A DNA stretch of 64,000 nt, from the NCBI GenBank assembly GCA_963826355.1, contig CAWGWX010000034.1, forward strand, positions 13,622-77,621, in the 5' to 3' direction. Origin of the DNA: Nitrospirota bacterium (GTDB lineage Bacteria; Nitrospirota; Thermodesulfovibrionia; Thermodesulfovibrionales; SM23-35). Under the pieces are notes generated by a model, which was given only the letters and a program-made list of their open reading frames with translations, was not told where the DNA came from and did not search any database. Every line of letters begins with the position of its first letter. The first letter of the stretch is position 1. The position numbers were made by a program, and so were the translations under genes. This document shows, piece by piece, positions 3,719 through 50,283 of the stretch.

Positions 3719-4053
3719 ATGAAACTCTTCTATCTGAATAAAACTCCCTATGAACCGGTCAGCCATGATCCCGGGCTGAAAAAGCGGGTCCTCGCAAGGA
3801 TATTCTTCCCTCTGTAAAACATATCAGCCATATTATTCTTCGGCCAGGAGACAGCGCCTCTGAACATGCACATTCTGATTATGTTGAGGTGTTCTACTGC
3901 ATCCGGGGTGATGCAGTATTCTCGATAAAAGGGGAAAGCATTTCAATCAGGAAAGGGCATTTACTTTTTGTCGAGCCTGGAGAAATACATTCTATTCAAA
4001 AAGTGAACGAAGAAACAGAGCTTCTCTACTTGCATGTGATTGAAAAGAGTTAA
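3719..4053 (+). pseudogene. Cupin_2-type protein gene with a 1-nt frameshift
   Basis: MKLFYLNKTPYEPVSHDPGLKKRVLA, then a frame change to DILPSVKHISHIILRPGDSASEHAHSDYVEVFYCIRGDAVFSIKGESISIRKGHLLFVEPGEIHSI (cupin His motifs). Adding one A at GCAAGG (about 3794-3799) restores one 111-aa ORF. Confidence 0.65.
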
Positions 4054-4347
4054 GAGTTACTGTTGTTTATCAATTAGAAAGGAGGGAGAGGGGCCTCTGG
4101 GGTATGGAAGGCCCCTCAGGGGGGTAAAAAAGCTCTATCAAAAGAATCTTCGTTATAGATATCCTGATATAACCTGCTTTAATAATATGATAGGGGAAAA
4201 AATAAAGAATGAAAATCAGAATTTGTCTGATTTTTTTGTAGGAACTTGTCTCGTTGCTCTGTAGGTTTTTGTCTTACAATTTTCCTGTACTTCTATGATT
4301 TTATGTGACTTTTTGACTCATTGAATTCTGGAAATAACTTCTTACCG

Positions 4348-8803: not shown

Positions 8804-9428
8804 TCATAAAACAACTCTTCCGCTGTTTGATGCCTTCACCTCTTCCCCCTCCTTTCCCCTTATATCCACTCCTCTGTGCAGACTCATCCTCTTCATGTTG
8901 AGTATCCGCTTTGTACCGTAGGGAGCTAATATCTCATGTTCGAGGGGAAGTGTAAAGCAACCATCCCAGAGTCTATCAGATACTTTCTGAAATATAGATT
9001 TCAGTCTTCTTTCTTCTTTCTTCTTTCTTTACCCTCCTCAAGTTTTCGGTGCTCAATAACACTTCATCTTCAGGCAGGGTAATCTCCCGTGTTGGAAAGC
9101 TGATGTGTTTTACGACTATATCCATACGCTTTCTCCTCTTGCCTATTTTCAGGTTAACAGGATAGACACCCGGCTGGGTTTTCATTTCTACTGCTCCGAT
9201 AGCAATAAAACAACGCTCTTCACTTCGACTGGAATAAAAATTTTTCCCCATAAATGAAGCAGGAGACATCTTCGAGACCCTTGTGTTAGTCACCTTGATG
9301 ACAAAAGCATCTCCCGGGAAGACTTCATGAGGTGAAACCATGACTTCGAGGGCAAAAGAAATGTCACACAGAAAAAACACAAGAAATACCAGGGTGATAA
9401 AAAATAAAAGTATACTATGCCTTTTCAT
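8804..9428 (-). pseudogene. M23 (LytM) peptidase gene, frameshifted and 3'-truncated
   Basis: Signal peptide MKRHSILLFFITLVFLVFF plus an N-terminal domain typical of M23 proteins (ORF ending 8976). It continues in another frame as FTLPLEHEILAPYGTKRILNMKRMSLHRGVDIRGKEGEEVKASNSGRVVL*. That frame ends before the HxH half of the domain and abuts the start of the next gene. Confidence 0.6.
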
Positions 9429-9653
9429 ATGTGCTTCCTTTCTCAATGTTTCCACTTTAAATGTACATGATCTGATTCGAATTTCTGGAAGGGATAGAAT
9501 GAACTTTTCCCTTTCCGGTTTCAGAAAGAAATGACCTATTTTTGCAGCAACATCGTCTTCATGATTTTTCATAATTTCTTCATCGGCTCTTCACAAGTTT
9601 TTCGTATCCTAATCTCATAAATAACATGAATAACATGATAAAGGAGGCATGAT

Positions 9654-15385: not shown

Positions 15386-16191
15386 ATGGAAAAAGATATA
15401 GCAAAAACAAAACAGCTTGTTGTAAAAACGTATTCAGCAATAGCCACCAATGCATCGTGTTGCATTATGTCTCCAAGCTGCTGTGCACCGAAGACCAGTA
15501 CGGTAAGCCTTCTCGAAACAGGCAGATGTCTGGGATACTCTGAAGAAGAATTGAAAATTGGGCTTGGGGAGGCAAATCTTGGCTTGGGCTGTGGGAATCC
15601 TCATGCAATAGCTGATATGAAAGCAGGAGAGACCGTACTTGACCTTGGAAGTGGTGCAGGTTTTGATGCCTTTCTTTCAACCATGAAAGTTGGAAACATG
15701 GTTACGTGATAGGGGTAGATATGACCGTTGAGATGGTCACAAAAGCAAAGGGCAATGCGCAAAAACTCGGGATAAAAAATGTTGAGTTCAGACTTGTAGA
15801 AATAGAACATCTGCCTGTGGATGATTGCTCTATTGATATCATTATATCGAACTGCGTCATTAATCTCTCCCCTGACAAACAGGCTGTCTTTCAGGAAGCC
15901 TTCCGTGTATTAAAACCTGAGGGAAGGCTTGCAATCTCAGACATACTCAAAAAAGGTGAATTCTCTGAGGCTCTTAAACAGAATGAGAGCGCTTACAGCG
16001 GTTGAATCACAGGGGCTGTTCCCGTGGAGGAACTCAGAGAGATTCTCAGAAAAGCTGGTTTTATTGATATTGTCATTCAAGACAAGGAAAACAGTGACGA
16101 GATTATCAAAAGCTGGCATTTCGGTGAAGGCGTTGAAAAAATGGTATTTTCAGCCTATATTCAAGCAAGAAAATCTTATGATGAAACATAA
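15386..16191 (+). CDS. arsM: Arsenite S-adenosylmethionine methyltransferase with an in-frame TGA (candidate Sec) and one frameshift
   Basis: Motifs [40 protein letters not shown] and [17 protein letters not shown] at 16003-16005 lies in AYSG[TGA]ITGAV, matching the conserved yaGC(V/I)xGA Cys. The reading frame continues to 16191. A frameshift lies at GGAAAC 15692-15697. Confidence 0.8.
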
Positions 16192-16565
16192 GGCAATTGG
16201 GCTCTGGTCTTTTACCGGATATCTCGTTCATAATCACTACTCAAGGGCTATTGTATTTAAGCAACATGATTAAGCTTTCTAAAACAGAAATTAGATAAGA
16301 GGATAGTTGTTACATTTTGACACAACGATTCCAAAAACGCACATGTCATTTATTAATCGCATATAGCTATACAGGCATAATGATTTCAGGGGAAAGCAAG
16401 CGTTTTTTTCTTTTACTTGAATATGCTCATGTGTTTCATAACGGTCTAATGGATTTTTAAAAGCAAAGGCAAATTTCAAAAAAACCTTATTTTCATTATG
16501 TTAGCTTTGATTTTATCATTGGCATGTTTTTAGCCTAAAGAGAAATAAGGAGAGGTTATAGAGGA

Positions 16566-30719: not shown

Positions 30720-30750
30720 AAAAGTTAAAAGTGAGAAGTGAGAAGTTTTC
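30720..30750 (+). repeat. Heptamer-periodic purine-rich array immediately after the clpX stop
   Basis: AAAAGTT AAAAGTG AGAAGTG AGAAGTT, with AGT every 7 nt, four times. Confidence 0.6.
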
Positions 30751-31549: not shown

Positions 31550-33847
31550 ATGCCGAAAATAAGAATTTATGAGCTTGCCAAAAAATTAGGAGTAACAAGT
31601 AAGGTTATCATTAGCGAGCTTTCAAAACTCGGTATAGAAGGGAAAGCGCATACTTCAAGTATCGAGCCCGAGTTGGCTGGAAATATTGAGGCTACATTAC
31701 TGAAAAAAGCTGTCAAACCGATAAAAGAAACTATCCCTCAAGAGAGCTCAGTAACCGAGGAAGTTGTGAGACCCCAGGTCGAAAAAGCTCCAGAGGAGCA
31801 TGGGGGAAAAGCAGTTACAATAGAGGGAAAGGAACCCGGAAGAGAAGGACGGAAAATACTTGTAATACCTGAAGAGGAAGAAGAATTAAAGGTTCCTGAT
31901 AGGTTCAAAAAAGAGATAGAGACAGAAAAGATTGAGAAGTTCAAGGCAAAACCAGGGATGCAGAAGGCTTTTCAGACAATCAGAAAGATAGAGCCCAAAA
32001 GATGGCATGAACAAAAACCATTAAAGAAGTTAGAAAAGATAAGACCTTTTCCAAAAGAAGAGCAGAAACCTCCTATCCATCTTGTCATTCCAAGAAAGAA
32101 GACACTGAAACTTCAGGAAGGCACTACGGTAAAGGAATTTGCAGAACTCATAAGTGTCAAACTCTCTGATGTTATAAAGAAATTCATGGAATTAGGATAT
32201 ATGCCAACAATAAACCAGCCTGTTGACCCTGACGCAGCCCTGTTAGTTGCGGAGGGTTTTGGAGTTAAGCTCGAGCTTTCATCTCTTGAAGATGATGCTG
32301 TTATCACAGAGGCACCAGAAGATATTGGTACATTATTACCGCGTCCTCCTGTTATAACCATCATGGGACATGTAGACCATGGAAAGACTTCCCTCCTCGA
32401 TGCAATAAGAAAAACAAAAGTTATCGAGACCGAAGCAGGAGGGATTACCCAGCATATCGGCGCATATAAGATTAATCTGAGAGGCAAAGATATTGTATTT
32501 CTCGATACGCCAGGTCATGAGGCGTTCACTTCTATGAGAGCAAGGGGGGCAAAGGTAACGGATATCGTTGTTCTTGTTGTAGCTGCAGATGATGGCGTCA
32601 TGCCGCAGACTGTTGAGGCTATCAATCATGCAAAGGCCGCAAATGTCCCGATCGTTGTAGCCATAAACAAGATCGACAAGCCAGAGGCGAATCCATCAAA
32701 GGTAAGGAATGAACTTGCAGAACACGGGATAATACCTGAGGAGTGGAGTGGACAAAACATCTTTGTTGAGGTATCTGCCAAAAAAGCTATAGGCATAGAA
32801 AGCCTCCTTGAGATGATACTCCTTCAGTCGGAGATAATGGAGCTTAAAGCCAACCCTGAGAAAAAAGCAAGGGGTACTATAATCGAAGCGAAACTCGATA
32901 GAGGGAGGGGACCTGTTGCAACGGTACTCGTCCAATCTGGAACCCTAAGGATTGGCGATACATTCCTTGCAGGTATTCATGTAGGAAAAGTAAGGGCATT
33001 GATCGACGATACAGGTAAAAGGATTACAGAAGCAGGCCCAACAACACCAGTTGAGGTAATCGGTTTTCCAGAGGTTCCCTCGGCAGGCGACATCTTTATC
33101 GCCGTCGATGACGAAAAGAGAGCAAGACAGATAGCCCTTGCAAGACAGCAGAAACAGAGACTTACTGATATGGCAAAGACGAGGAAGCTTACCCTCGATG
33201 AATTATATGCGAAGATAAAAGAGGGGGAGATAAAAGATCTCAACATTATTATTAAGGGCGATGTTCAAGGATCTGTTGAGGCACTAAAGGATGCCCTTGA
33301 AAGTATTACCCACACACAGGTGAAGGTTAGGGTCATCCATTCTTCTGTTGGTGGTATCAATGAGTCAGACATTATGCTCGCCTCTGCCTCAAATGCAATT
33401 ATCATAGGTTTCAATGTGAGGCCCGAGCCCAAAGCGTACCAGGCAGCAGAAAAGGAAGGCGTTGATGTCAGGCTTTATAACGTGATTTATGAAGCAATAG
33501 AAGATGTTAAAAAGGCACTTGAGGGTCTTCTCGAACCCACACTCAAAGAAAAAACCCTTGGAAGAGCAGAGGTCCGTCAGGTGTTTCCGATATCGAAGAT
33601 AGGAACGGTTGCAGGATGTTACGTGCTTGATGGCTCTATCAGCCGCTCAAGTGATGGTATGAGGATTAGTAGGGATAGCATTGTTGTATATGACGGTAAA
33701 ATCGGTTCCCTTAAAAGATTCAAGGAAGATATCAGAGAGGTACAAGCAGGATATGAATGCGGCATCCTGATCGAAAACTTTAATGATATAAAAGTTGGAG
33801 ACATACTCGAAAACTACATTATTGAGAAGATAGCAACAAAACTCTAA
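31550..33847 (+). CDS. infB: Translation initiation factor IF-2
   Basis: 765 aa. G-domain motifs [20 protein letters not shown] and NKID. Located upstream of rbfA. Confidence 0.95.
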
Positions 33848-33852
33848 ATAAG

Positions 33853-33932
33853 CTAAGAGTTGAGAGAGTTATGAGTTATAAGTTTAAAAACAACAATCCA
33901 CTTTCGACTCTTCACTTTCCACTTCTAACTTT
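33853..33932. repeat. Forward AGT-heptamer array, 11-nt spacer, then an inverted ACT-heptamer array between infB and rbfA
   Basis: Forward arm 33853-33886 has AGT at 9, 7 and 7-nt spacing. Inverted arm 33898-33932 has ACT x5 every 7 nt. The arms can form an imperfect hairpin with about 70% pairing. Confidence 0.6.
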
Positions 33933-35249: not shown

Positions 35250-35289
35250 AACTTTTCTTTCATAGATATCTTTAATTAATGGGACTAAA

Positions 35290-35409
35290 CCACTGACAAA
35301 GTCAGTGGTGGGGTGTGGGGGCGGAGGCCCCACCCCTTATATGTCCACCAACATTGTTGGTGGTTATCAAATAACTCCTCCGCTTAAAAGCCACCGACAA
35401 GGTCGGTGG
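35290..35409. repeat. Cluster of three covarying 8-bp hairpins plus a G/C-rich hairpin
   Basis: CCACTGAC-aaa-GTCAGTGG (35290-35308). GGGGTGTGGGG-gcggagg-CCCCACCCC (35310-35336). CCACCAAC-att-GTTGGTGG (35345-35363). CCACCGAC-aag-GTCGGTGG (35391-35409). The loop GCGGAGG is complementary to CCTCCGC at 35377-35383. Confidence 0.55.
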
Positions 35410-35435
35410 TAGTTTACTTATACCTGAAGAGAATC

Positions 35436-39081: not shown

Positions 39082-39596
39082 GGAAGATAACCTGTTGCTT
39101 CATCATGCTTTTTCTTTTATTACCCTTTGCAGGCTGCAAAAAAGAACAGGCTCCTGTAAAAAAACCGATGGCCGGGCAGGTTCAACCTCCACCGGCAACA
39201 CCGGAAGTAAAGAGCCCAGAAGAGACAAAGAAGGCCGAGCAGGAAATATATGTGTATGACGCAAAAGGGAAAAGGGACCCTTTCCTTTCTCTCGTAACGA
39301 TATTAAAACAGAAGCCAGAAAGGAGGAAGGGCTCGACTCCTTTTGAAAGCTACAGTGTCGATGAAATAAATCTTTTAGCAATTGCATGGGATAATCAAAA
39401 GTATTATGCCCTCATCATGTTGCCTGATAAAAAGTCGTATACGATTACGGAAGGGATGAAATTGGGACTCTATGGAGGGAAGGTACAGAAAATAACTAAG
39501 GATATGGTGGTAATCAGGGAATACATGAAAGACTATAAAGGCGATCTTAAACCAAAGGATTCAATATTGAAACTCCGTAAAGAGGAGGGAGGATGA
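39078..39596 (+). CDS. pilP: Pilus assembly lipoprotein PilP
   Basis: Lipobox LLLPFAGC, the motif GKRDPF, and its position between pilO and pilQ. Confidence 0.7.
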   Translation: MRKITCCFIMLFLLLPFAGCKKEQAPVKKPMAGQVQPPPATPEVKSPEETKKAEQEIYVYDAKGKRDPFLSLVTILKQKPERRKGSTPFESYSVDEINLLAIAWDNQKYYALIMLPDKKSYTITEGMKLGLYGGKVQKITKDMVVIREYMKDYKGDLKPKDSILKLRKEEGG

Positions 39597-41756
39597 AACT
39601 CATAGTAAAGGAAAAGAAGCGAAAAGCTAAGAGCAAGCAAAGAGCGAAAAACAAATGGCAATACTCTAAATCAATTCTTTTATACTCCATGATGCTATGC
39701 TCTCTGCTCTTTGCTCTCTATGGTTGCGCAACAACAGGTGATGCTAAAGAAACTACACAGCCTGAAAGAACTCCTGTAATAACCGGAATAGATCTTCAGG
39801 ATTATTCAGTAACGATAAAGGTTAGTAAACCTTTTAGTTACACCATGTACAGGCCAGAGGACCCTTATAAAGTTGTCGTTGAACTTCTTGATGTTAACAT
39901 GGGTGCTTTTAATATGAAGATCATTTCTGATAAGGCAGGAATAACCGAGATCGTTCCCTACCAGATTGAGTCACCTTTTATGACAAGGCTCGAAATACTG
40001 CTTCAGACGCCTACTACAGCTGAACCAGAGTATAAAGACAATGCACTGAAAATCAGGATAAAAGAATCACCGAAAGAAGTAACAAAAGCAGAAATAATGA
40101 AAGCAAAGGAAGAGGTATCAGAAACAAAAGAACCCGAACCTGTTATGCCTGAAGAGAAACAGCTTCCAAAGGCTACAGAGATAACCAGTATCTCCTTCGA
40201 AAGGTCAGCTGACATCGTCAAAGTCCTTATTAAAGGTAATGGATCTATGAATCCAAATGTTTTACCTTTAGATAATCGCATCGTCATAGACGTTCCTGAT
40301 GTAGATATGAAAGCTCAGATTCCAGAGTCAGTGGTATCACCATTAAAAAGTATCAGATCAGGGAAACATGATAACAAGATACGATTAGTCCTCGATCTCA
40401 AAGAAAAGACAGATTTTGATGTCACAACAATCGGAGACACCCTTGTCGTAGCCCTATCAACTCTATCAGTACCAATTTCTCAGAGGTCTGAAGAAAAGAT
40501 AGAGGCTGCAGAATCCATGCCGGGTTCAGAAGGTAAATATACCGGCAAAAAGATATCTCTCGATTTTCAAGATGCTGATATCGTTCCGATATTTAGGTTA
40601 CTTTCTGATATTAGTGGTTATAACATCGTCGTGAGTCCTGAGGTCAAAGGTAAATTAACAATGAAGCTCATCAATGTGCCCTGGGATCAAGCACTCGACA
40701 TAATATTGAAGACCTTCAGCCTTGGGAAGACTGTTGAAAATAACATCATAAGGATTGCACCCTATAATGCTTTTGCTAAAGAGATGGAAGAGGCAGTAAA
40801 GTCAGTGCCCTTAGATACTAAAATATTTCACATCAGCTATGCCGATGTATCTAATATAGAGAAGTCCATAAAAGATGCAAAGATACTTTCATCAAGAGGA
40901 AGCATTAGCGTTGATAAAAGGACAAGCTCCGTGGCCATTAATGATGTAGAAGCAGTTTTCCCGCAAATCGAAAATCTCCTTTCAACCCTCGATACACCAA
41001 CACCCCAGGTAATGATAGAGGCAAGGCTTGTTGAGGTGAATACATCAGATGTCAGCGCTTTGGGAATTCAATGGGGAGTAGCCCACGAAGCGGGAAGTAA
41101 ACCATTTCAGGGGAACGTAAACCTAGGTAAAGGAGCCTTTACAGGGAAGAACTTCATGGTTGACTTCCCAGCGAGCTGGGGCGGGCCCTGGCGCTGGTGC
41201 TGGATTTGCTATCGGAATTCTGGATACTACAAGGACGATGGGGCTTGATCTGCAGCTCTCTGCACTTGAGAGACTTGAGAAGAGTAAGATAATTTCTACC
41301 CCTCGGATCGTTACTACAGATAATGAAAAAGCTTCAATAATGCAGGGAACAAGTGTACCTTTTCCCAAAGTAGACGTGCAATCGGGTCAAATATCGGTTG
41401 AATATAAAGATGTTGTTATTCTCATAGAGGTAACACCCCATATAACCCCCTCCGGAGCTGTCACTACGTTAATTTTTGTGAAAAAGGAAGATGTCATACG
41501 TGAAACCTCAATTGGCGGTAATCCGGTTCCCGTTACTTCTAAAATAGAGGGAAATACAAAAGTTCTCGTGCAGACTGGAGAGACTATCGTTATTGGTGGA
41601 CTCTTAAAGAAGACAGAGAAGGAAAACACTTCAGGTGTTCCAGGTTTGATGAATATTCCTATTCTTGGATGGTTATTTAAGACCAAAGGGACTTCTGAAG
41701 AAACAAGCGAGCTTTTGATATTCATTACGCCGAGGGTTTTGGAGAAAACAATATGA
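39593..41756 (+). pseudogene. pilQ: Type IV pilus secretin PilQ, interrupted by a +1 frameshift in the secretin domain
   Basis: AMIN-like N-terminal repeats. The secretin core is split between ORF 39593..41248 (..NFMVDFPAS) and ORF 41160..41756 (GAGPGAGAGFAIGIL...LSALERLEKSKIISTPRIVTTDNEKASIMQG...LLIFITPRV). The shift site lies between 41127 and 41248, probably near GCGAGCTGGGG (41171-41181). Confidence 0.85.
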
Positions 41757-42391
41757 TTTCTCCTGTTGTGAATGCGTTCACGTATCTTACTAGATGAACT
41801 GAACGCAAGAATAATCAATACCTGAAGGCAATTTTTTAGAGTAAAAAACAAAAATATATGTCCCACCTCCGATTTCTTACCGCTGGTGAATCCCATGGGA
41901 GGGCGCTTATAGGAATTCTTGAGGGCATTCCCTCCGGGCTTTCTATTTCTGTAGAGGATATTGACAGAGACCTCAAAAGAAGACAGTCAGGTCATGGTCG
42001 CGGTGCTCGGATGAAGATAGAGTCTGACCATGCTGAGATCCTTTCAGGAGTGAGGTGGGGAAAAACAATAGGTTCTCCCATAACTCTTTTTATTGAAAAT
42101 AAAGACTGGAAGAACTGGCAGGATGTAATGTCAACGGAGTTCGTCAGTCTGGGCCAGAAGAGTTCGGGAAGTCAAGATCCCAGAATGGAAATCGTCACCC
42201 GTCCACGCCCTGGCCATGCAGACTTAGCAGGTGCCATAAAGTATAGCCAATATGATTTAAGAAATATTCTTGAACGCTCAAGTGCCAGGGAAACGGCAAT
42301 GAGAGTTGGCCTTGGCGCACTTGCAAAAAAGTTTCTTTTGGAATTTAGGATTAAAGTTGGTAGTTATGTTATCCAGATAGGCAAAATCAAA

Positions 42392-42426
42392 GTTCAAACT
42401 TCAAACTTCAAACTTCAAAGTTCAGG
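42392..42426 (+). repeat. Heptamer tandem array (N)TTCAAA x5 inside aroC (in frame; encodes VQTSNFKLQSSG)
   Basis: GTTCAAA CTTCAAA CTTCAAA CTTCAAA GTTCAGG. Confidence 0.85.
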
Positions 42427-42741
42427 AAAAATACTATTATCTCTGTTCGAAAAGGCAGAAAGGTCACCGGTCAGGTGTCCGGATGAAGAGATTTCAGCAA
42501 AGATGACCAAGCTGATAGACAAGGTAACCAAAGATGGGAATTCCCTTGGAGGTATATTTGAGGTCTTCGTAACAGGTGTCCCCATAGGTCTTGGAAGTCA
42601 CATGCAATGGGACAAAAGGCTCGATGGAAGGCTTGCACAGGCGCTCATGGGCATCCAGGCAATAAAAGGAGTTGAGACCGGTATCGGTTTTGAGATAGCA
42701 AGACGCTTCGGCTCAGAAGTTATGGATGAAATATTTTATAC

Positions 42742-42769
42742 TCAGGAGTCAGGAGTCAGGAGTCAGGAG
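42742..42769 (+). repeat. Perfect heptamer tandem array (TCAGGAG)x4 inside aroC
   Basis: Four exact copies (28 nt). The reading frame differs on the two sides of the array. Confidence 0.9.
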
Positions 42770-43143
42770 GTTTCTATAGAAAAACTAACTATGCTGGTGG
42801 GATAGAAGGTGGTATGACGAACGGAATGCCCATAATTATGAGAGCAGCAATGAAACCCATACCTACCTTAAAGAGACCTCTTCGATCTGTTGACATCATA
42901 ACAAAAAAGCCTGTAGAAGCAGCCTATGAACGTTCGGACATCTGTGCAGTACCTGCAGCAGGAGTAATAGCAGAGGCGATGATTGCCCTGATTATTGCAG
43001 ATGCCTTCCTCGAAAAATTCGGCGGGGATAGCATAACCGAAACAAAACGTAATTACGACTCCTATATTGAGTATATAAAGAAATTTTAGGTTCTTCTCCT
43101 CATTAGTTTTACAAAGGGGATTATCGTAATTAATTTTTGGCTC

Positions 43144-45985: not shown

Positions 45986-47404
45986 TTATTGTTTTTTCCA
46001 TGAGGTTACAAATGTCTGAAGGCCTTCGGTCTTTGTTATTTTTGCAGATAGAGTCTCAGCCGTTTCCCTGTTGCTGAATTTGCCCGTCCATACCTTATAG
46101 AGCCTTCCCTCCTTTTTTGATTTTGACGAGGTTATATAGGTATGATATCCCTTTTTATCAAGTCTTTTCTTGAGGGACTTTGCATAAGAGACATCGGTGA
46201 AGGCACCCACCTGGACTGTAAATATCGCCTGTGAGGGTTTCTGGGATTGTGAAAGTTTTATTTTTGTTTTTTCAGTGGTCTCTGCCTTTTCACTTTGTGG
46301 TACAGCTTCTTGAAGGGGGGTAGAGGTCTGGGCTCTAACCTCTCCAGGAGATTTTTCCGCCAAAATTGATTCTTGAGGTGGAGGAGAAGCTTGTGATTGA
46401 ACCTGTTTAGTCAATCTTTCGTTTTGAACGAAGGTCCTTAAGGATTTAATCTCAAGACTTTTATTTAATGAGCTTTTCCAAGCAAAATAACCAACTATAA
46501 GACTCGCTAAGACCGTGACGAATATGGCTGAAATGATAATGCCAATAGAGGTTGATTTATTCCTTACAATGTTTCTCTCCCCTATTGGTAAATCTGCTGT
46601 CTTTATTTCTCTTTCTATAAATAAGTCTGTTTCCAGTTGTTCTTCCTCTAGCATAGCTGATGTTTCTGGTTTCTCGCTTTCTCGCAATATCTCAGACTCC
46701 TTCCCATCCAAGGACTTTTCCCGTTCTCCATGCTTTTCTATCACTTCTTCTATAGAAAATCTCACAGGTTGTTCTGAAACCATCTCTTTATCATGGATAC
46801 CCTCTTTTATCCAGCCATGTTTGGGACAGAAAACCCAACCAGATTTCTTGAAATCCTCTTTTCTCTTTCCATATTTCTCAATCTGTTTATTGCAAATGGT
46901 GCAATACATGGTTCTATCTGTTGCTTTATTCATGTCGTCTTTTAGTTCCTTTTCTAGCATAGCTGATGTTTCTGGTTTCTCGCTTTCTCGCAATATCTCA
47001 GACTCCTTCCCATCCAAGGACTTTTCCCGTTCCCCATGCTTTTCTATCACTTCTTCTATAGAAAATCTCACAGGTTGTTCTGAAACCATCTCTTTATCAT
47101 GGATACCCTCTTTTATCCAGCCATGTTTGGGACAGAAAACCCAACCAGATTTCTTGAAATCCTCTTTTCTCTTTCCATATTTCTCAATCTGTTTATTGCA
47201 AATGGTGCAATACATGGTTCTATCCCCCGTCATACTCTTATCGTTTTGTGATGCTTTTTTCTCTATCTCCTTTTTGAATCTATCCGGACCCTTTGACTCT
47301 TCTTCCTCAGGAGTGAACGATGCTTCTGATCTCTCCATTTCGGAAAGTGTCTCCGGCTCGTTTTCTGCTAAAGGATTTTCCTGTTCTCTATGTTCTTCTT
47401 GCAC
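45986..47404 (-). CDS. SPOR-domain membrane protein with a duplicated zinc-ribbon module
   Basis: C-terminal SPOR domain (IFTVQVGAFTDVSYAKSLKKRLDKKGYHTYITSSKSKKEGRLYKVWTGKF). One TM segment. Two near-identical copies of CTICNKQIEKYGK...WVFCPKHGW units. Confidence 0.75.
   Translation of the reverse strand: MQEEHREQENPLAENEPETLSEMERSEASFTPEEEESKGPDRFKKEIEKKASQNDKSMTGDRTMYCTICNKQIEKYGKRKEDFKKSGWVFCPKHGWIKEGIHDKEMVSEQPVRFSIEEVIEKHGEREKSLDGKESEILRESEKPETSAMLEKELKDDMNKATDRTMYCTICNKQIEKYGKRKEDFKKSGWVFCPKHGWIKEGIHDKEMVSEQPVRFSIEEVIEKHGEREKSLDGKESEILRESEKPETSAMLEEEQLETDLFIEREIKTADLPIGERNIVRNKSTSIGIIISAIFVTVLASLIVGYFAWKSSLNKSLEIKSLRTFVQNERLTKQVQSQASPPPQESILAEKSPGEVRAQTSTPLQEAVPQSEKAETTEKTKIKLSQSQKPSQAIFTVQVGAFTDVSYAKSLKKRLDKKGYHTYITSSKSKKEGRLYKVWTGKFSNRETAETLSAKITKTEGLQTFVTSWKKQ
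46648..47224. repeat. Direct tandem duplication, period 306 bp, inside the SPOR gene
   Basis: 46648-46918 and 46954-47224 are identical at 270/271 positions. The only difference is T 46727 versus C 47033, which is synonymous. Confidence 0.9.
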
Positions 47405-47940: not shown

Positions 47941-48511
47941 ATGAAAGTTGTAGCTTTTAATGGAAGTCCAAGGAAAAAAGGTAACACCTATCACGCTATC
48001 CAGACAGTATTCAAAGAGCTTAAGAAAGAAGGTATAAAGACTGAACTCATTCAGCTCGGAGGTACCAATATAAAGGGATGCAGGGCATGCTATGAGTGTT
48101 TTAAGAATAAAAATAAACGCTGCATTCAGGACGATGAACTAAATGTGTTCATTGAGAAAATGGTAGAGGCGGAAGGAATCATTATCGGGTCCCCTACATA
48201 TTTCAGTAATGTCTCTACTGAGGTAAAGGCCCTTATTGAGAGGGCTGGCCTCGTTGCCCGTGCTAATACATCTTTTTAAAAGAAAGGTTGGAGCTGCTGT
48301 TGTAGCAGTCCGGAGGGCAGGGGCGACCCATGTATATTCGAGCATAAACTTCTTTTTTGGGATTGGACACATGATTATTCCGGGCTCAAGTTACTGGAAT
48401 CTTGGAATCGGTCTTAATCCGGGTGATATACTTAAGGACAAAGAAGGCATAACAACATTCAGAGATTTAGGGCAGAACATGGCATGGCTTCTTAAAAAAC
48501 TTTATGGATGA
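47941..48511 (+). pseudogene. Flavodoxin-like fold NAD(P)H-dependent FMN reductase / iron-sulfur flavoprotein, frameshifted
   Basis: AAAGGAGG then ATG. MKVVAFNGSPRKKGNTY...CRACYEC...IIIGSPTYFSNVS..ARAN, then a frame change to [22 protein letters not shown]...[10 protein letters not shown]. The shift lies near 48262-48270 and is not in a homopolymer. Confidence 0.75.
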
Positions 48512-49308: not shown

Positions 49309-50283
49309 TTGTGCATGCATAGAAGGGGCATAGTAGTTCAGGTACCAGAGGCTGGTCAGAGGCTTGACACATTTCTTGCAAAAAAGACAGGGATTACAAG
49401 GTCACAAATACAGAGACTCATAGACAAGGGGAATGTCCTTATTCGCGGAAAAGCTGCCAGTCAACATTATAAGGTTAAGGCAGAGGATCTCATCTCCCTT
49501 CATATCCCTGAAGAAAAGATCGAGGGGCTCATCCCGGAGCCAATTCCTGTAGAGATATTTTATAAGGATGATCATATCGTTGTTGTAAATAAACCTGCTG
49601 GCATGGTTGTTTATCCTTCTGCTGGTCACAGCCATGGAACCCTCATGAATGCCCTTTTACACCATTGTAAAAAACTAGCTACGGTTGGAGGGCCATTGAG
49701 ACCGGGTGTTATTCACAGGCTTGATAAAGACACCTCGGGTGTCATGGTGATTGCCCTGAATGATGAAGCTTACTATAACCTTGTTGAACAATTTAGACAC
49801 AGGACCATAGACAAAAGATATATTGCTTTAATTCATGGGAATCTCAGAGAAGATCAGGGTGAGATAACACTCATGATTGGTCGTTCTGAGTCTGATAGAA
49901 AAAAGATGTCAACTCGTGTAAGGAGGGGTAGAGAAGCAGTTACGAGGTGGAGTGTTATAGAGAGATTCAGAAATGCTACCTTAATCGAGGTGAGACTCCG
50001 AACCGGAAGGACACACCAGATAAGGGTACATTTTGCTTCTATCGGACATCCTGTGCTTGGAGACAGGACATATGGGAAAAAGATTGAGATTGAGTATAAA
50101 GGTAAAAAGAAGATTTTCTTTCCGAGACAGATGCTCCATGCTGAATTATTAGGGTTTACTCATCCAGCAATGGGTGAGTACCTTGAATTTTCAGCACCTG
50201 TGCCAGAGGATATGGCTGGAAAAATTAAAGAACTCCAGTATCTTAACTCTGCATCTTCAATGGTAATCCAAGATCAACACTAA
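49309..50283 (+). CDS. rluD: 23S rRNA pseudouridine synthase, RluA/RluD family
   Basis: S4-like N-terminus. Motifs VVVNKPAGMVVYPS, HRLDKDTSGVMVIA and GRTHQIRVH. Confidence 0.9.
   Translation: MCMHRRGIVVQVPEAGQRLDTFLAKKTGITRSQIQRLIDKGNVLIRGKAASQHYKVKAEDLISLHIPEEKIEGLIPEPIPVEIFYKDDHIVVVNKPAGMVVYPSAGHSHGTLMNALLHHCKKLATVGGPLRPGVIHRLDKDTSGVMVIALNDEAYYNLVEQFRHRTIDKRYIALIHGNLREDQGEITLMIGRSESDRKKMSTRVRRGREAVTRWSVIERFRNATLIEVRLRTGRTHQIRVHFASIGHPVLGDRTYGKKIEIEYKGKKKIFFPRQMLHAELLGFTHPAMGEYLEFSAPVPEDMAGKIKELQYLNSASSMVIQDQH

What the first reader, a model, noticed from the sequence alone, without database searches (positions are those of the whole stretch)
42392..42769. Two heptanucleotide tandem arrays inside aroC; (TCAGGAG)x4 sets the gene out of frame, while 2 or 5 copies would be in frame
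aroC contains GTTCAAA-(CTTCAAA)x3-GTTCAGG (42392-42426), read in frame as VQTSNFKLQSSG within a variable loop. It also contains four exact TCAGGAG copies (42742-42769). Upstream of the second array the frame reads ..[14 protein letters not shown]... Downstream, the conserved [22 protein letters not shown].. lies in frame +2. Because 7 mod 3 = 1, adding one copy gives ..[19 protein letters not shown].. and restores the ORF. Removing two copies gives ..[12 protein letters not shown].., close to normal chorismate synthase length, and also restores it. A heptamer repeat in a coding region is the classical substrate for slipped-strand ON/OFF switching, but aroC is a core biosynthetic gene. The alternatives are repeat-length heterogeneity in the population, mis-assembly of the repeat, or true inactivation. 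The two arrays belong to the same AGT/ACT-heptamer style as the post-stop arrays and are in opposite orientation, 330 bp apart.
Basis: seen in the sequence. Interest (0 to 1): 0.7.

Follow-up and report, generated by a model that had tools for sequence, protein, structure and literature searches.

The report
Slippage-prone 7-base repeat breaking aroC
A real, fast-changing 7-base repeat sits in a tolerant loop of the essential enzyme chorismate synthase; other members of the species carry 2 or 5 copies (gene intact), and only this assembly has 4 (gene broken), which looks like a one-unit slip or miscount, not a built-in switch.

Summary
(TCAGGAG)x4 lies at 42742-42769 in aroC (41858-43089). It shifts the frame by -1. 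Only 2, 5 or 8 copies give an intact ORF.

The window comes from a Thermodesulfovibrionales (Nitrospirota) genome. Contigs of the same species (about 97.5% nucleotide identity) from four other samples carry 5 copies (three contigs) or 2 copies (one contig). A sister lineage also has both lengths. Twice, a 2-copy and a 5-copy allele differ by a single residue outside the loop. The tract is therefore truly hypermutable, in 3-unit steps.

In 62 other species this loop holds inserts of 15-129 nt, all in frame, and most long ones have period 7. Heptamer arrays cluster in three AroC loops across the order.

The 4-copy allele is the only out-of-frame one among about 20 close alleles. The window also carries three other fresh frameshifts (pilQ, an FMN reductase, an ArsM-like methyltransferase).

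I conclude that this is a slippage-prone coding microsatellite. Its 4-copy state is a non-programmed one-unit slip. A consensus miscount or mixed population is about 55% likely and a genuine recent null allele about 30%. Adaptive ON/OFF switching (about 10%) and ribosomal recoding (about 3%) are not supported.

The parts
41858..43089 (+). aroC (chorismate synthase), a single copy in the window, interrupted by a frameshift
   Evidence: tblastn of the rebuilt protein hits 41858-42754 in frame 2 and 42715-43086 in frame 1, and nowhere else in the window. Pfam PF01264 is found in all relatives. The best PDB match is Aquifex chorismate synthase 1Q1L, E=1e-147.
41858..42805 (+). N-terminal ORF (315 aa) ending in a frameshifted tail, ..[13 protein letters not shown]
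   Evidence: It is identical to database protein P0122, which comes from an NCBI/ENA contig of 153,940 nt. The deposited assembly therefore carries the frameshift.
42742..42769 (+). Array 2: (TCAGGAG)x4, exact, lying in the loop between ..VMDEIFY and FYRKTN.. It encodes SGVRSQE per 3 units and has no stop codon in any of the three forward frames.
   Evidence: Conspecific contigs have 5 copies (L082, L083, L084) or 2 copies (L081) at the same place.
42770..43089 (+). C-terminal part of aroC ([22 protein letters not shown]) in the -1 frame. It is otherwise undamaged.
   Evidence: It has 0-1 amino-acid differences from the conspecific proteins P0001 and P0002.
42392..42426 (+). Array 1: GTTCAAA-(CTTCAAA)x3-GTTCAGG, in frame (VQTSNFKLQSSG), in a second variable loop of normal length
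   Evidence: There is no length difference among conspecifics. The homologous loop in relatives carries other heptamer arrays, with 13 perfect arrays at residues about 166-194.
42137..42193 (+). Third hypervariable loop of AroC (residues about 94-112, ..EFVSLGQKSSGSQDPRMEI..). The window has no perfect array here. It is listed because relatives carry heptamer arrays or palindromic inserts at this position.
   Evidence: Alignment A1. PDB homologues have a 9-residue gap here. Three perfect heptamer arrays lie at residues about 96-115 in relatives.

Best explanation
The TCAGGAG tract is a genuine, slippage-prone heptanucleotide microsatellite in an insertion-tolerant loop of chorismate synthase. 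Replication slippage adds or removes whole 7-nt units. Because 7 mod 3 = 1, only tracts of 3n+2 units keep the enzyme in frame, and selection leaves 2 and 5 copies as the working states seen in the species and its sister lineage. The 4-copy state in this window is one unit short of the common 5-copy allele. It is not a programmed state. Most likely the organism's working aroC is in frame, and the deposited consensus miscounts the tract or averages a population mixed in copy number. What is shown: the tract, the frame arithmetic, the 2/4/5 polymorphism within the species, the recurrent 2<->5 change, and frame conservation in all relatives. What is inferred: slippage as the mutational mechanism, and the 4-copy count not being the functional genotype.
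For: Contigs at about 97.5% nucleotide identity from four independent samples have 5, 5, 5 and 2 copies at the identical site. Protein alleles P0123 (2 copies) and P0124 (5 copies) differ by 1 residue outside the loop. In the sister lineage, P0126 (2) and P0007 (5) also differ by 1 residue. Tract length therefore changes much faster than point substitutions accumulate, and always by 3 units in surviving alleles. Of about 20 close alleles, 9 have 2 copies, 10 have 5, and the only out-of-frame one is the window's own. In 62 other species the loop insert is always a multiple of 3 (15-129 nt). Solved chorismate synthases (1Q1L, 1QXO, 1ZTB) have an 8-9 residue gap exactly at this loop relative to the 5-copy allele, so the 2-copy allele has the canonical length and the extra units are dispensable. 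The part of aroC after the frameshift is intact and near-identical to conspecifics, so the lesion is very recent or not real. The same window has three more lesions: +1 nt in pilQ at 41173, which is unique against conspecifics and three other species, -2 nt in an FMN reductase at 48268, and -1 nt in an A-run of an ArsM-like methyltransferase at about 15693. From established biochemistry, chorismate is the precursor of Phe/Tyr/Trp, folate and menaquinone, so a fixed null allele would be costly for a respiring anaerobe.
Against: A clean loss of exactly one 7-nt unit is what in-vivo slippage produces. It is not a typical sequencing or assembly error. Short reads would span a 28-nt tract easily. 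Over 19 kb compared with conspecifics the window shows few indels, and only one of them (intergenic) lies in a homopolymer, so it does not look like a noisy long-read assembly. I had no reads and do not know the sequencing platform. The other three lesions could equally mean that this strain really is accumulating pseudogenes.
Confidence: 0.55

Rival explanations
1. Genuine recent null allele. In the sequenced strain a one-unit slip (5 to 4) really inactivated aroC. The strain would then be auxotrophic for chorismate products and live on cross-feeding, as part of a recent burst of gene loss.
For: A whole-unit change in a tract shown to be polymorphic. Three other frameshifts that look strain-specific lie in the same 64 kb. 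The assembly is otherwise clean against conspecifics, with 0 gaps in 5.4 kb at 99% identity. The frameshift is in the deposited record, as P0122.
Against: aroC feeds the aromatic amino acid, folate and menaquinone pathways. All 66 other sequences examined are in frame. There is no secondary decay downstream of the lesion. A hypermutable tract should revert quickly under selection.
Confidence: 0.3
2. Adaptive phase variation. The heptamer tract would act as a contingency locus that reversibly switches chorismate synthesis ON and OFF in a fraction of cells, as a form of metabolic bet-hedging or cheating on aromatic compounds.
For: The unit length is not a multiple of 3, the repeats are perfect, copy number varies within the species, and change recurs on near-identical backgrounds. 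Expansion from 2 to 5 copies by single-unit steps would have to pass through 3 and 4 copies.
Against: Only 1 of about 20 close alleles is OFF, and that one is the window itself. Known contingency loci show frequent OFF alleles and affect surface or restriction-modification genes, not core biosynthesis. Observed changes are 3-unit steps that keep the frame. 5 copies appears in all sub-lineages, partly degenerate (P0004, P0010, L085), so one-step 21-nt deletions from 5 to 2 explain the pattern without OFF intermediates. The tract is short (4-5 units).
Confidence: 0.1
3. Recoding. The 4-copy gene would be expressed through a -1 ribosomal frameshift, for example tRNA-Lys slipping on the GAAAAAC run at 42779-42785, stimulated by the AGGAG (Shine-Dalgarno-like) repeats about 10 nt upstream as in dnaX. 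Alternatively it could be expressed as two polypeptides.
For: The required shift is -1. AGGAG ends at 42769 and an A5 run starts at 42780.
Against: There is no X XXY YYZ motif in the zero frame, whose codons are GAA AAA CTA. There is no stable structure downstream (z = -0.37). The frameshift is not conserved in any relative. The product would replace the conserved GFYR motif, whose Arg is invariant in alignment A1 and present in the PDB homologues, with VSIE. The downstream ATG at 42814 would drop the invariant RKTNxAGGIEGG motif.
Confidence: 0.03

Closest known systems
Simple-sequence-repeat contingency loci (slipped-strand phase variation, e.g. the CAAT tetranucleotide in Haemophilus lic1A, the CTCTT pentamer in Neisseria opa, and the 7-bp repeats at H. 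influenzae hmw; cf. PMC8262952, PMC5084427)
   Same: A perfect tandem repeat whose unit is not a multiple of 3 lies inside an ORF. Copy number differs between very close strains. Frame depends on copy number.
   Different: The gene is a core biosynthetic enzyme. Surviving alleles differ by 3 units, so the frame is kept. OFF alleles are essentially absent from public data. The tract is short. Reversible switching has not been shown.
Cyanobacterial STRR (short tandemly repeated repetitive heptanucleotide sequences of Nostoc, Anabaena and Calothrix; from my own knowledge of Mazel et al. 1990, not retrieved here)
   Same: Period 7 dominates the tandem repeats of a lineage. Several related unit variants are dispersed in the genome, many just after genes.
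   Different: The phylum differs (Nitrospirota). The units differ (RRAGTYN-like, e.g. AGGAGTC, AGAAGTT). Here the arrays also sit in frame inside a conserved enzyme.
Geobacter metallireducens heptanucleotide elements (49 sites with four tandem GGACCGG repeats, found within and between genes; PMC2700814)
   Same: About four tandem heptamers occur at many sites, including inside genes, in a non-cyanobacterial anaerobe.
   Different: Those are one GC-rich consensus proposed as regulatory RNA. Here the units vary between sites and species, are read as protein, and change in copy number.
Rickettsia palindromic elements and similar selfish repeats inserted in frame into protein-coding genes (from my own knowledge of Ogata et al. 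2000)
   Same: Repeats are tolerated in surface loops of essential proteins. Relatives of this aroC carry G/C-rich palindromic mini-inserts (peptides like PPLAKGG) in the same three loops.
   Different: The window's inserts are tandem heptamers, not palindromic elements, and they grow and shrink by slippage, not by transposition.

Membership tests
SSR contingency (phase-variable) locus | Perfect tandem repeat, with a unit not divisible by 3, inside the ORF | tested here: met
   (TCAGGAG)x4 is exact, and frame depends on copy number.
SSR contingency (phase-variable) locus | Copy number varies among very closely related genomes | tested here: met
   2, 4 and 5 copies occur at about 97.5% nucleotide identity. 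2-copy and 5-copy alleles differ by 1 residue elsewhere.
SSR contingency (phase-variable) locus | Both ON and OFF (out-of-frame) alleles are common in natural populations | tested here: not met
   1 OFF allele (the window itself) among about 20 close alleles, and 0 of 62 other species out of frame. Caveat: assemblies show only majority genotypes.
SSR contingency (phase-variable) locus | High-frequency reversible switching measured in a clonal population | not testable with these tools
   This needs reads or cultures.
Programmed -1 ribosomal frameshift (dnaX type) | Slippery X XXY YYZ heptamer in the zero frame | tested here: not met
   The zero-frame codons after the tract are GTT TCT ATA GAA AAA CTA.
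Programmed -1 ribosomal frameshift (dnaX type) | Downstream stimulatory structure, and conservation of the frameshift in relatives | tested here: not met
   The fold z-score is -0.37. All relatives are in frame.
Cyanobacterial STRR heptamers | Heptamer tandem arrays are the dominant short tandem-repeat class and are dispersed in the genome | tested here: met
   In the window, all 3 perfect arrays of 3 or more copies have period 7. In 844 kb of relatives' loci, 32 of 45 such arrays have period 7; most of the remainder have period 4, with two of period 8 and one of period 5.
Cyanobacterial STRR heptamers | Cyanobacterial host and the canonical units (STRR1-3, as I recall them) | tested here: not met
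   The host is Thermodesulfovibrionales/Nitrospirota. The units are TCAGGAG, CTTCAAA and AGAAGTG.
Chorismate synthase (AroC, PF01264) | Full-length similarity, including the invariant RPGHAD and RKTNxAGGIEGG motifs | tested here: met
   The rebuilt 405/412-aa protein is 98% identical to P0001 and 97% to P0002 (PF01264) and matches 1Q1L at E=1e-147. As encoded in the window it is split.

The most novel reading that the evidence does not exclude
The tract could be a true metabolic contingency locus. Natural populations of this Nitrospirota species would then continually generate aroC-OFF cells (3, 4, 6 copies...). These cells would live on community-supplied aromatic compounds and revert by slippage, and the 4-copy consensus here would be a sample in which OFF cells dominate. 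More broadly, heptamer arrays may have been recruited repeatedly into three loops of AroC across the Thermodesulfovibrionia. Their density in aroC is about 15-fold higher than in flanking DNA, for a reason not yet understood.
Probability: 0.1. Interest if true: 0.75.

Novelty: new member of a known kind. Interest (0 to 1): 0.4.

Why it matters
There is a practical consequence. A metabolic reconstruction from this assembly would score the shikimate pathway as broken and call the organism an aromatic-amino-acid, folate and quinone auxotroph. That call would rest on one 7-nt unit in a tract that reads 2 or 5 copies in every other member of the species. Such tracts should be checked against reads before any claim of gene loss.

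There is also a biological point. The locus shows the '3n+2' selection filter on a coding microsatellite unusually clearly. It reveals that AroC in a whole bacterial order carries fast-evolving heptamer arrays and palindromic inserts in three loops. That is a natural experiment in loop tolerance and bacterial microsatellite dynamics, in a phylum where I found no published description.

Tried and rejected
- Exact-protein look-ups of window proteins (AspS, the 315-aa ORF, and the ORF at 49309-50283) found no contigs. ClpP returned only short contigs. I therefore could not extend the conspecific comparison beyond 29.8-49.1 kb.
- The JGI metagenome pattern scan, designed to count 1-9 copies including out-of-frame ones, returned only two contigs. 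Both have 5 units, one of them degenerate. This is too few for a copy-number distribution.
- A short-query protein search using the frameshifted tail returned only four AroC fragments. The three I traced lie on ENA contigs where aroC and most neighbouring genes are shattered into several ORFs (L088-L090). I read this as assembly noise that is uninformative about the tract.
- The AlphaFold model of the 5-copy protein was poor (mean pLDDT 46) and was not used. Loop tolerance rests on the gaps in PDB homologues instead.
- Programmed frameshifting and a functional split gene were considered and rejected.
- Chance origin of the repeats was rejected.
- Literature searches for heptanucleotide repeats in Nitrospir* and for STRR found nothing directly relevant. 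One Geobacter precedent was found.
- Suspicious overlapping ORF pairs elsewhere in the window (54056/54579, 56652/57394, 33938/34281) are separate intact genes, not frameshifts.

Full report
**1. What is in the sequence**

aroC occupies 41858-43089 on the + strand. It lies between a type IV pilus cluster (pilMNOPQ) and aspS, which is on the other strand.

Four exact TCAGGAG units lie at 42742-42769. Upstream of them, the ORF from 41858 reads ..[31 protein letters not shown] and stops at 42805, giving 315 aa. The conserved remainder, [26 protein letters not shown], is in the -1 frame and runs to 43089.

I rebuilt the gene with 0-8 units. Only 2, 5 and 8 units give an intact ORF, of 405, 412 and 419 aa.

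The first array, GTTCAAA-(CTTCAAA)x3-GTTCAGG at 42392-42426, is in frame and reads VQTSNFKLQSSG.

The repeats are not a chance feature. The only perfect tandem repeats of 3 or more copies with period 4-12 in the whole window are three heptamer arrays, two of them in aroC. Order-3 Markov simulations expect 0.0.

**2. Source organism and close relatives**

The rebuilt protein finds Thermodesulfovibrionales/Nitrospirota genomes. The best species representative is 86% identical.

In the protein database the nearest hits are P0001 (405 aa, 98%) and P0002 (412 aa, 97%). Their contigs align to the window at about 97.5% nucleotide identity over 8-13 kb with the same gene order, so they belong to the same species.

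At the tract, copy numbers are as follows:

| Contig | Source | Copies |
|---|---|---|
| L082 | ENA ERZ27247709 | 5 |
| L083 | JGI 3300012964 | 5 |
| L084 | JGI Ga0315282 | 5 |
| L081 | Logan SRR18214449 | 2 |
| window | source assembly | 4 |

Cluster members add further 2-copy alleles (P0121, P0123) and a 5-copy allele (P0124). They also include a 315-aa protein, P0122, that is identical to the window's truncated ORF and comes from an NCBI/ENA contig of 153,940 nt. This is evidently the source record itself.

A sister lineage (about 86% amino-acid, 87% nucleotide identity) also has both 2-copy alleles (P0003, P0005, P0006, P0008, P0009, P0126) and 5-copy alleles (P0007, P0125, P0127). It also has degenerate 5-unit versions (P0004, P0010, P0129, P0130, L085).

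**3. The tract is hypermutable, and selection filters for frame**

Outside the loop, P0123 (2 copies) and P0124 (5 copies) differ by a single residue. The same holds for P0126 (2) and P0007 (5) in the sister lineage, which is about 52 residues away.

So the 3-unit length change happened at least twice, on backgrounds that have hardly diverged otherwise. This is the signature of a tract that mutates much faster than point substitutions accumulate.

All surviving alleles have 3n+2 units: 9 with 2 copies and 10 with 5. The only exception is the window.

5 units occur in every sub-lineage, in part already degenerate. One-step 21-nt deletions (5 to 2) therefore explain the pattern without any out-of-frame intermediate. 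That is an inference.

**4. The wider picture**

In 62 other species the DNA between ..VMDEIFY and RKTN.. ranges from 15 to 129 nt and is always a multiple of 3. The window's 38 nt is the only exception.

Of the 42 inserts of 36 nt or more, 25 have their best autocorrelation at lag 7. Units differ between species (GGTTCAC, GTCAGCA, AAGCCAG, AGCAAAG, GGGTCAG and others), and many share a GTCAG or TTCA core.

Some species instead carry octamer arrays or G/C-rich palindromic mini-elements, which are translated as ..PPLAKGG...

Perfect heptamer arrays of 3 or more copies in relatives' aroC fall in three loops:

- residues about 96-115: 3 arrays
- residues about 166-194: 13 arrays (the window's array-1 site)
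- residues about 284-307: 6 arrays (the array-2 site)

These occur in 19 of 80 species. The remainder of the protein is highly conserved.

Across 844 kb of these loci, nearly all arrays of 3 or more copies with period 5-12 have period 7. There are 21 in 97 kb of aroC against 11 in 746 kb of flanks, about a 15-fold higher density in aroC. I cannot explain this enrichment.

The same TCAGGAG unit occurs at the site-1 loop of another species (L010). It also occurs as a 14-copy array at a contig end (L046).

Solved chorismate synthases have an 8-9 residue gap exactly at the array-2 loop relative to the 5-copy allele, and a 9-residue gap at the first loop. The 2-copy allele therefore has the canonical length, and the extra units are dispensable loop material. 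My AlphaFold model was too poor to add anything.

**5. Why I do not read the 4-copy state as a switch**

(a) It is the only out-of-frame allele among about 20 close alleles and 62 species.

(b) aroC is a housekeeping gene. From established biochemistry, chorismate feeds the aromatic amino acids, folate and menaquinone.

(c) The window carries other frame-breaking lesions that have nothing to do with heptamers:

- A +1 nt insertion in pilQ at 41173 splits a 720-aa secretin into 551 + 198 aa. The insertion is unique against conspecifics and against L001, L085, L025 and L004.
- A change of GAC to A (-2 nt) at 48268 truncates an FMN reductase that is otherwise near-identical to its conspecific.
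- A one-base loss in an A-run at about 15693 splits an ArsM-like methyltransferase.

All four lesions are fresh, with no secondary decay downstream. That pattern fits either an imperfect consensus or a very recent burst of inactivation. In neither case is aroC singled out.

(d) There is no recoding signal. The zero frame has no X XXY YYZ motif, there is no downstream structure (z = -0.37), and no relative conserves the frameshift.

**6. Artefact or real allele?**

I could not settle this.

For a real allele:

- The loss is exactly one unit, in a tract proven to slip.
- The assembly is otherwise clean against conspecifics, with 0 gaps in 5.4 kb at 99% identity and only one homopolymer indel, which is intergenic, in 19 kb.
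- Short reads would span a 28-nt tract.

For an artefact or a mixed population:

- The gene is essential.
- The lesion is unique to this assembly.
- Three other fresh frameshifts lie in the same window.
- Both 2-copy and 5-copy strains are known to co-exist in the species, and a long-read consensus could average them to an intermediate count.

My estimates are:

| Explanation | Probability |
|---|---|
| Consensus miscount or mixed population | about 55% |
| True recent null allele | about 30% |
| Adaptive phase variation | about 10% |
| Recoding or other | about 5% |

Spanning reads would decide this at once.

**7. Comparison with known systems**

Mechanistically this is a coding simple-sequence repeat that changes by slipped-strand mispairing, as in contingency loci. 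It meets the structural criteria for a contingency locus: unit length, perfect repeats and variation within the species. It fails the population criterion that OFF alleles be common, and the gene class is wrong.

The genome-wide predominance of heptamers, including arrays just after stop codons (30720-30746 after clpX, 33866-33884, 4045-4059), recalls cyanobacterial STRR. It also recalls the heptanucleotide elements reported within and between genes of Geobacter metallireducens (PMC2700814).

The in-frame colonisation of enzyme loops recalls Rickettsia palindromic elements.

I found no paper describing heptamer arrays in Nitrospirota.

I therefore class this as a new member of a known kind: interesting as population genetics and as an annotation trap, but not a new mechanism.

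Noticed in passing
window 39593-41756 (lesion at about 41173): pilQ (secretin) is split into 551 + 198 aa by a +1 nt insertion in a Gly/Ala-rich loop (CCCAGCGAGCTGG). Conspecifics encode an intact 720-aa protein. The surrounding segment (41060-41290) is 92% identical to a sister species (L001) but only 78% identical to conspecifics, which suggests a recombined or hypervariable surface loop.
   Followed up: partly
window 47941-48510 (lesion at about 48268): An FMN-reductase gene (Pfam FMN_red) is truncated by GAC>A (-2 nt). It is otherwise near-identical to conspecific L082, which encodes 190 aa.
   Followed up: partly
window 15386-16192: An ArsM/UbiE-like SAM methyltransferase has a one-base loss in an A-run at about 15693. 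It also has an in-frame TGA at 16003-16005, exactly where ArsM-type enzymes have a conserved Cys (..ESAYSG[TGA]ITGAVP..). A small hairpin (CACAGGGGCUGUUCCCGUG) follows 5 nt downstream. This is a possible selenocysteine codon with SECIS. The fold is not statistically distinctive (z = -0.76).
   Followed up: partly
window 35278-35418: A 141-nt intergenic insertion is absent from conspecific L084. It is built of four hairpins (CCACTGACAAAGTCAGTGG; GGGGTGTGGGGGCGGAGGCCCCACCCC; CCACCAACATTGTTGGTGG; CCACCGACAAGGTCGGTGG) and looks like a miniature mobile element.
   Followed up: no
window 30720-30746, 33857-33884, 4045-4059, 9005-9029: The window has other heptamer arrays. AAAAGTT/AGAAGTG units start right after the clpX stop codon. 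AAGAGTT/GAGTTAT units follow the stop at 33847. AAGAGTT x2 lies at 4045. (TCTTCTT)x3.6 lies in the last 18 codons of the minus-strand ORF 8976..9572. The units resemble the aroC units (RRAGTY core).
   Followed up: partly
window 46647-47224: A 306-bp direct tandem duplication (1.9 copies, 99% identical) lies inside the SPOR-domain gene 45986..47404. It is also present in conspecific L082.
   Followed up: no
L002, L005, L009, L055, L056, L062, L070 (aroC loops); proteins P0011, P0014, P0087, P0091 and others: G/C-rich palindromic mini-elements (e.g. CCCCCCTTGCTAAGGGGGGG, translated ..PPLAKGG..) are inserted in frame in the same three AroC loops in many Thermodesulfovibrionia.
   Followed up: partly
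L046 1-99; L010 6517-6530: The same TCAGGAG/GAGTCAG unit forms a 14-copy array at a contig end upstream of aroC in another species. It also occurs as 2 or more copies in the first AroC loop of a further species.
   Followed up: no
L001-L080 (844 kb): Perfect heptamer arrays are about 15 times denser inside aroC (21 in 97 kb) than in the flanking DNA (11 in 746 kb). I have no explanation for why aroC is favoured.
   Followed up: partly
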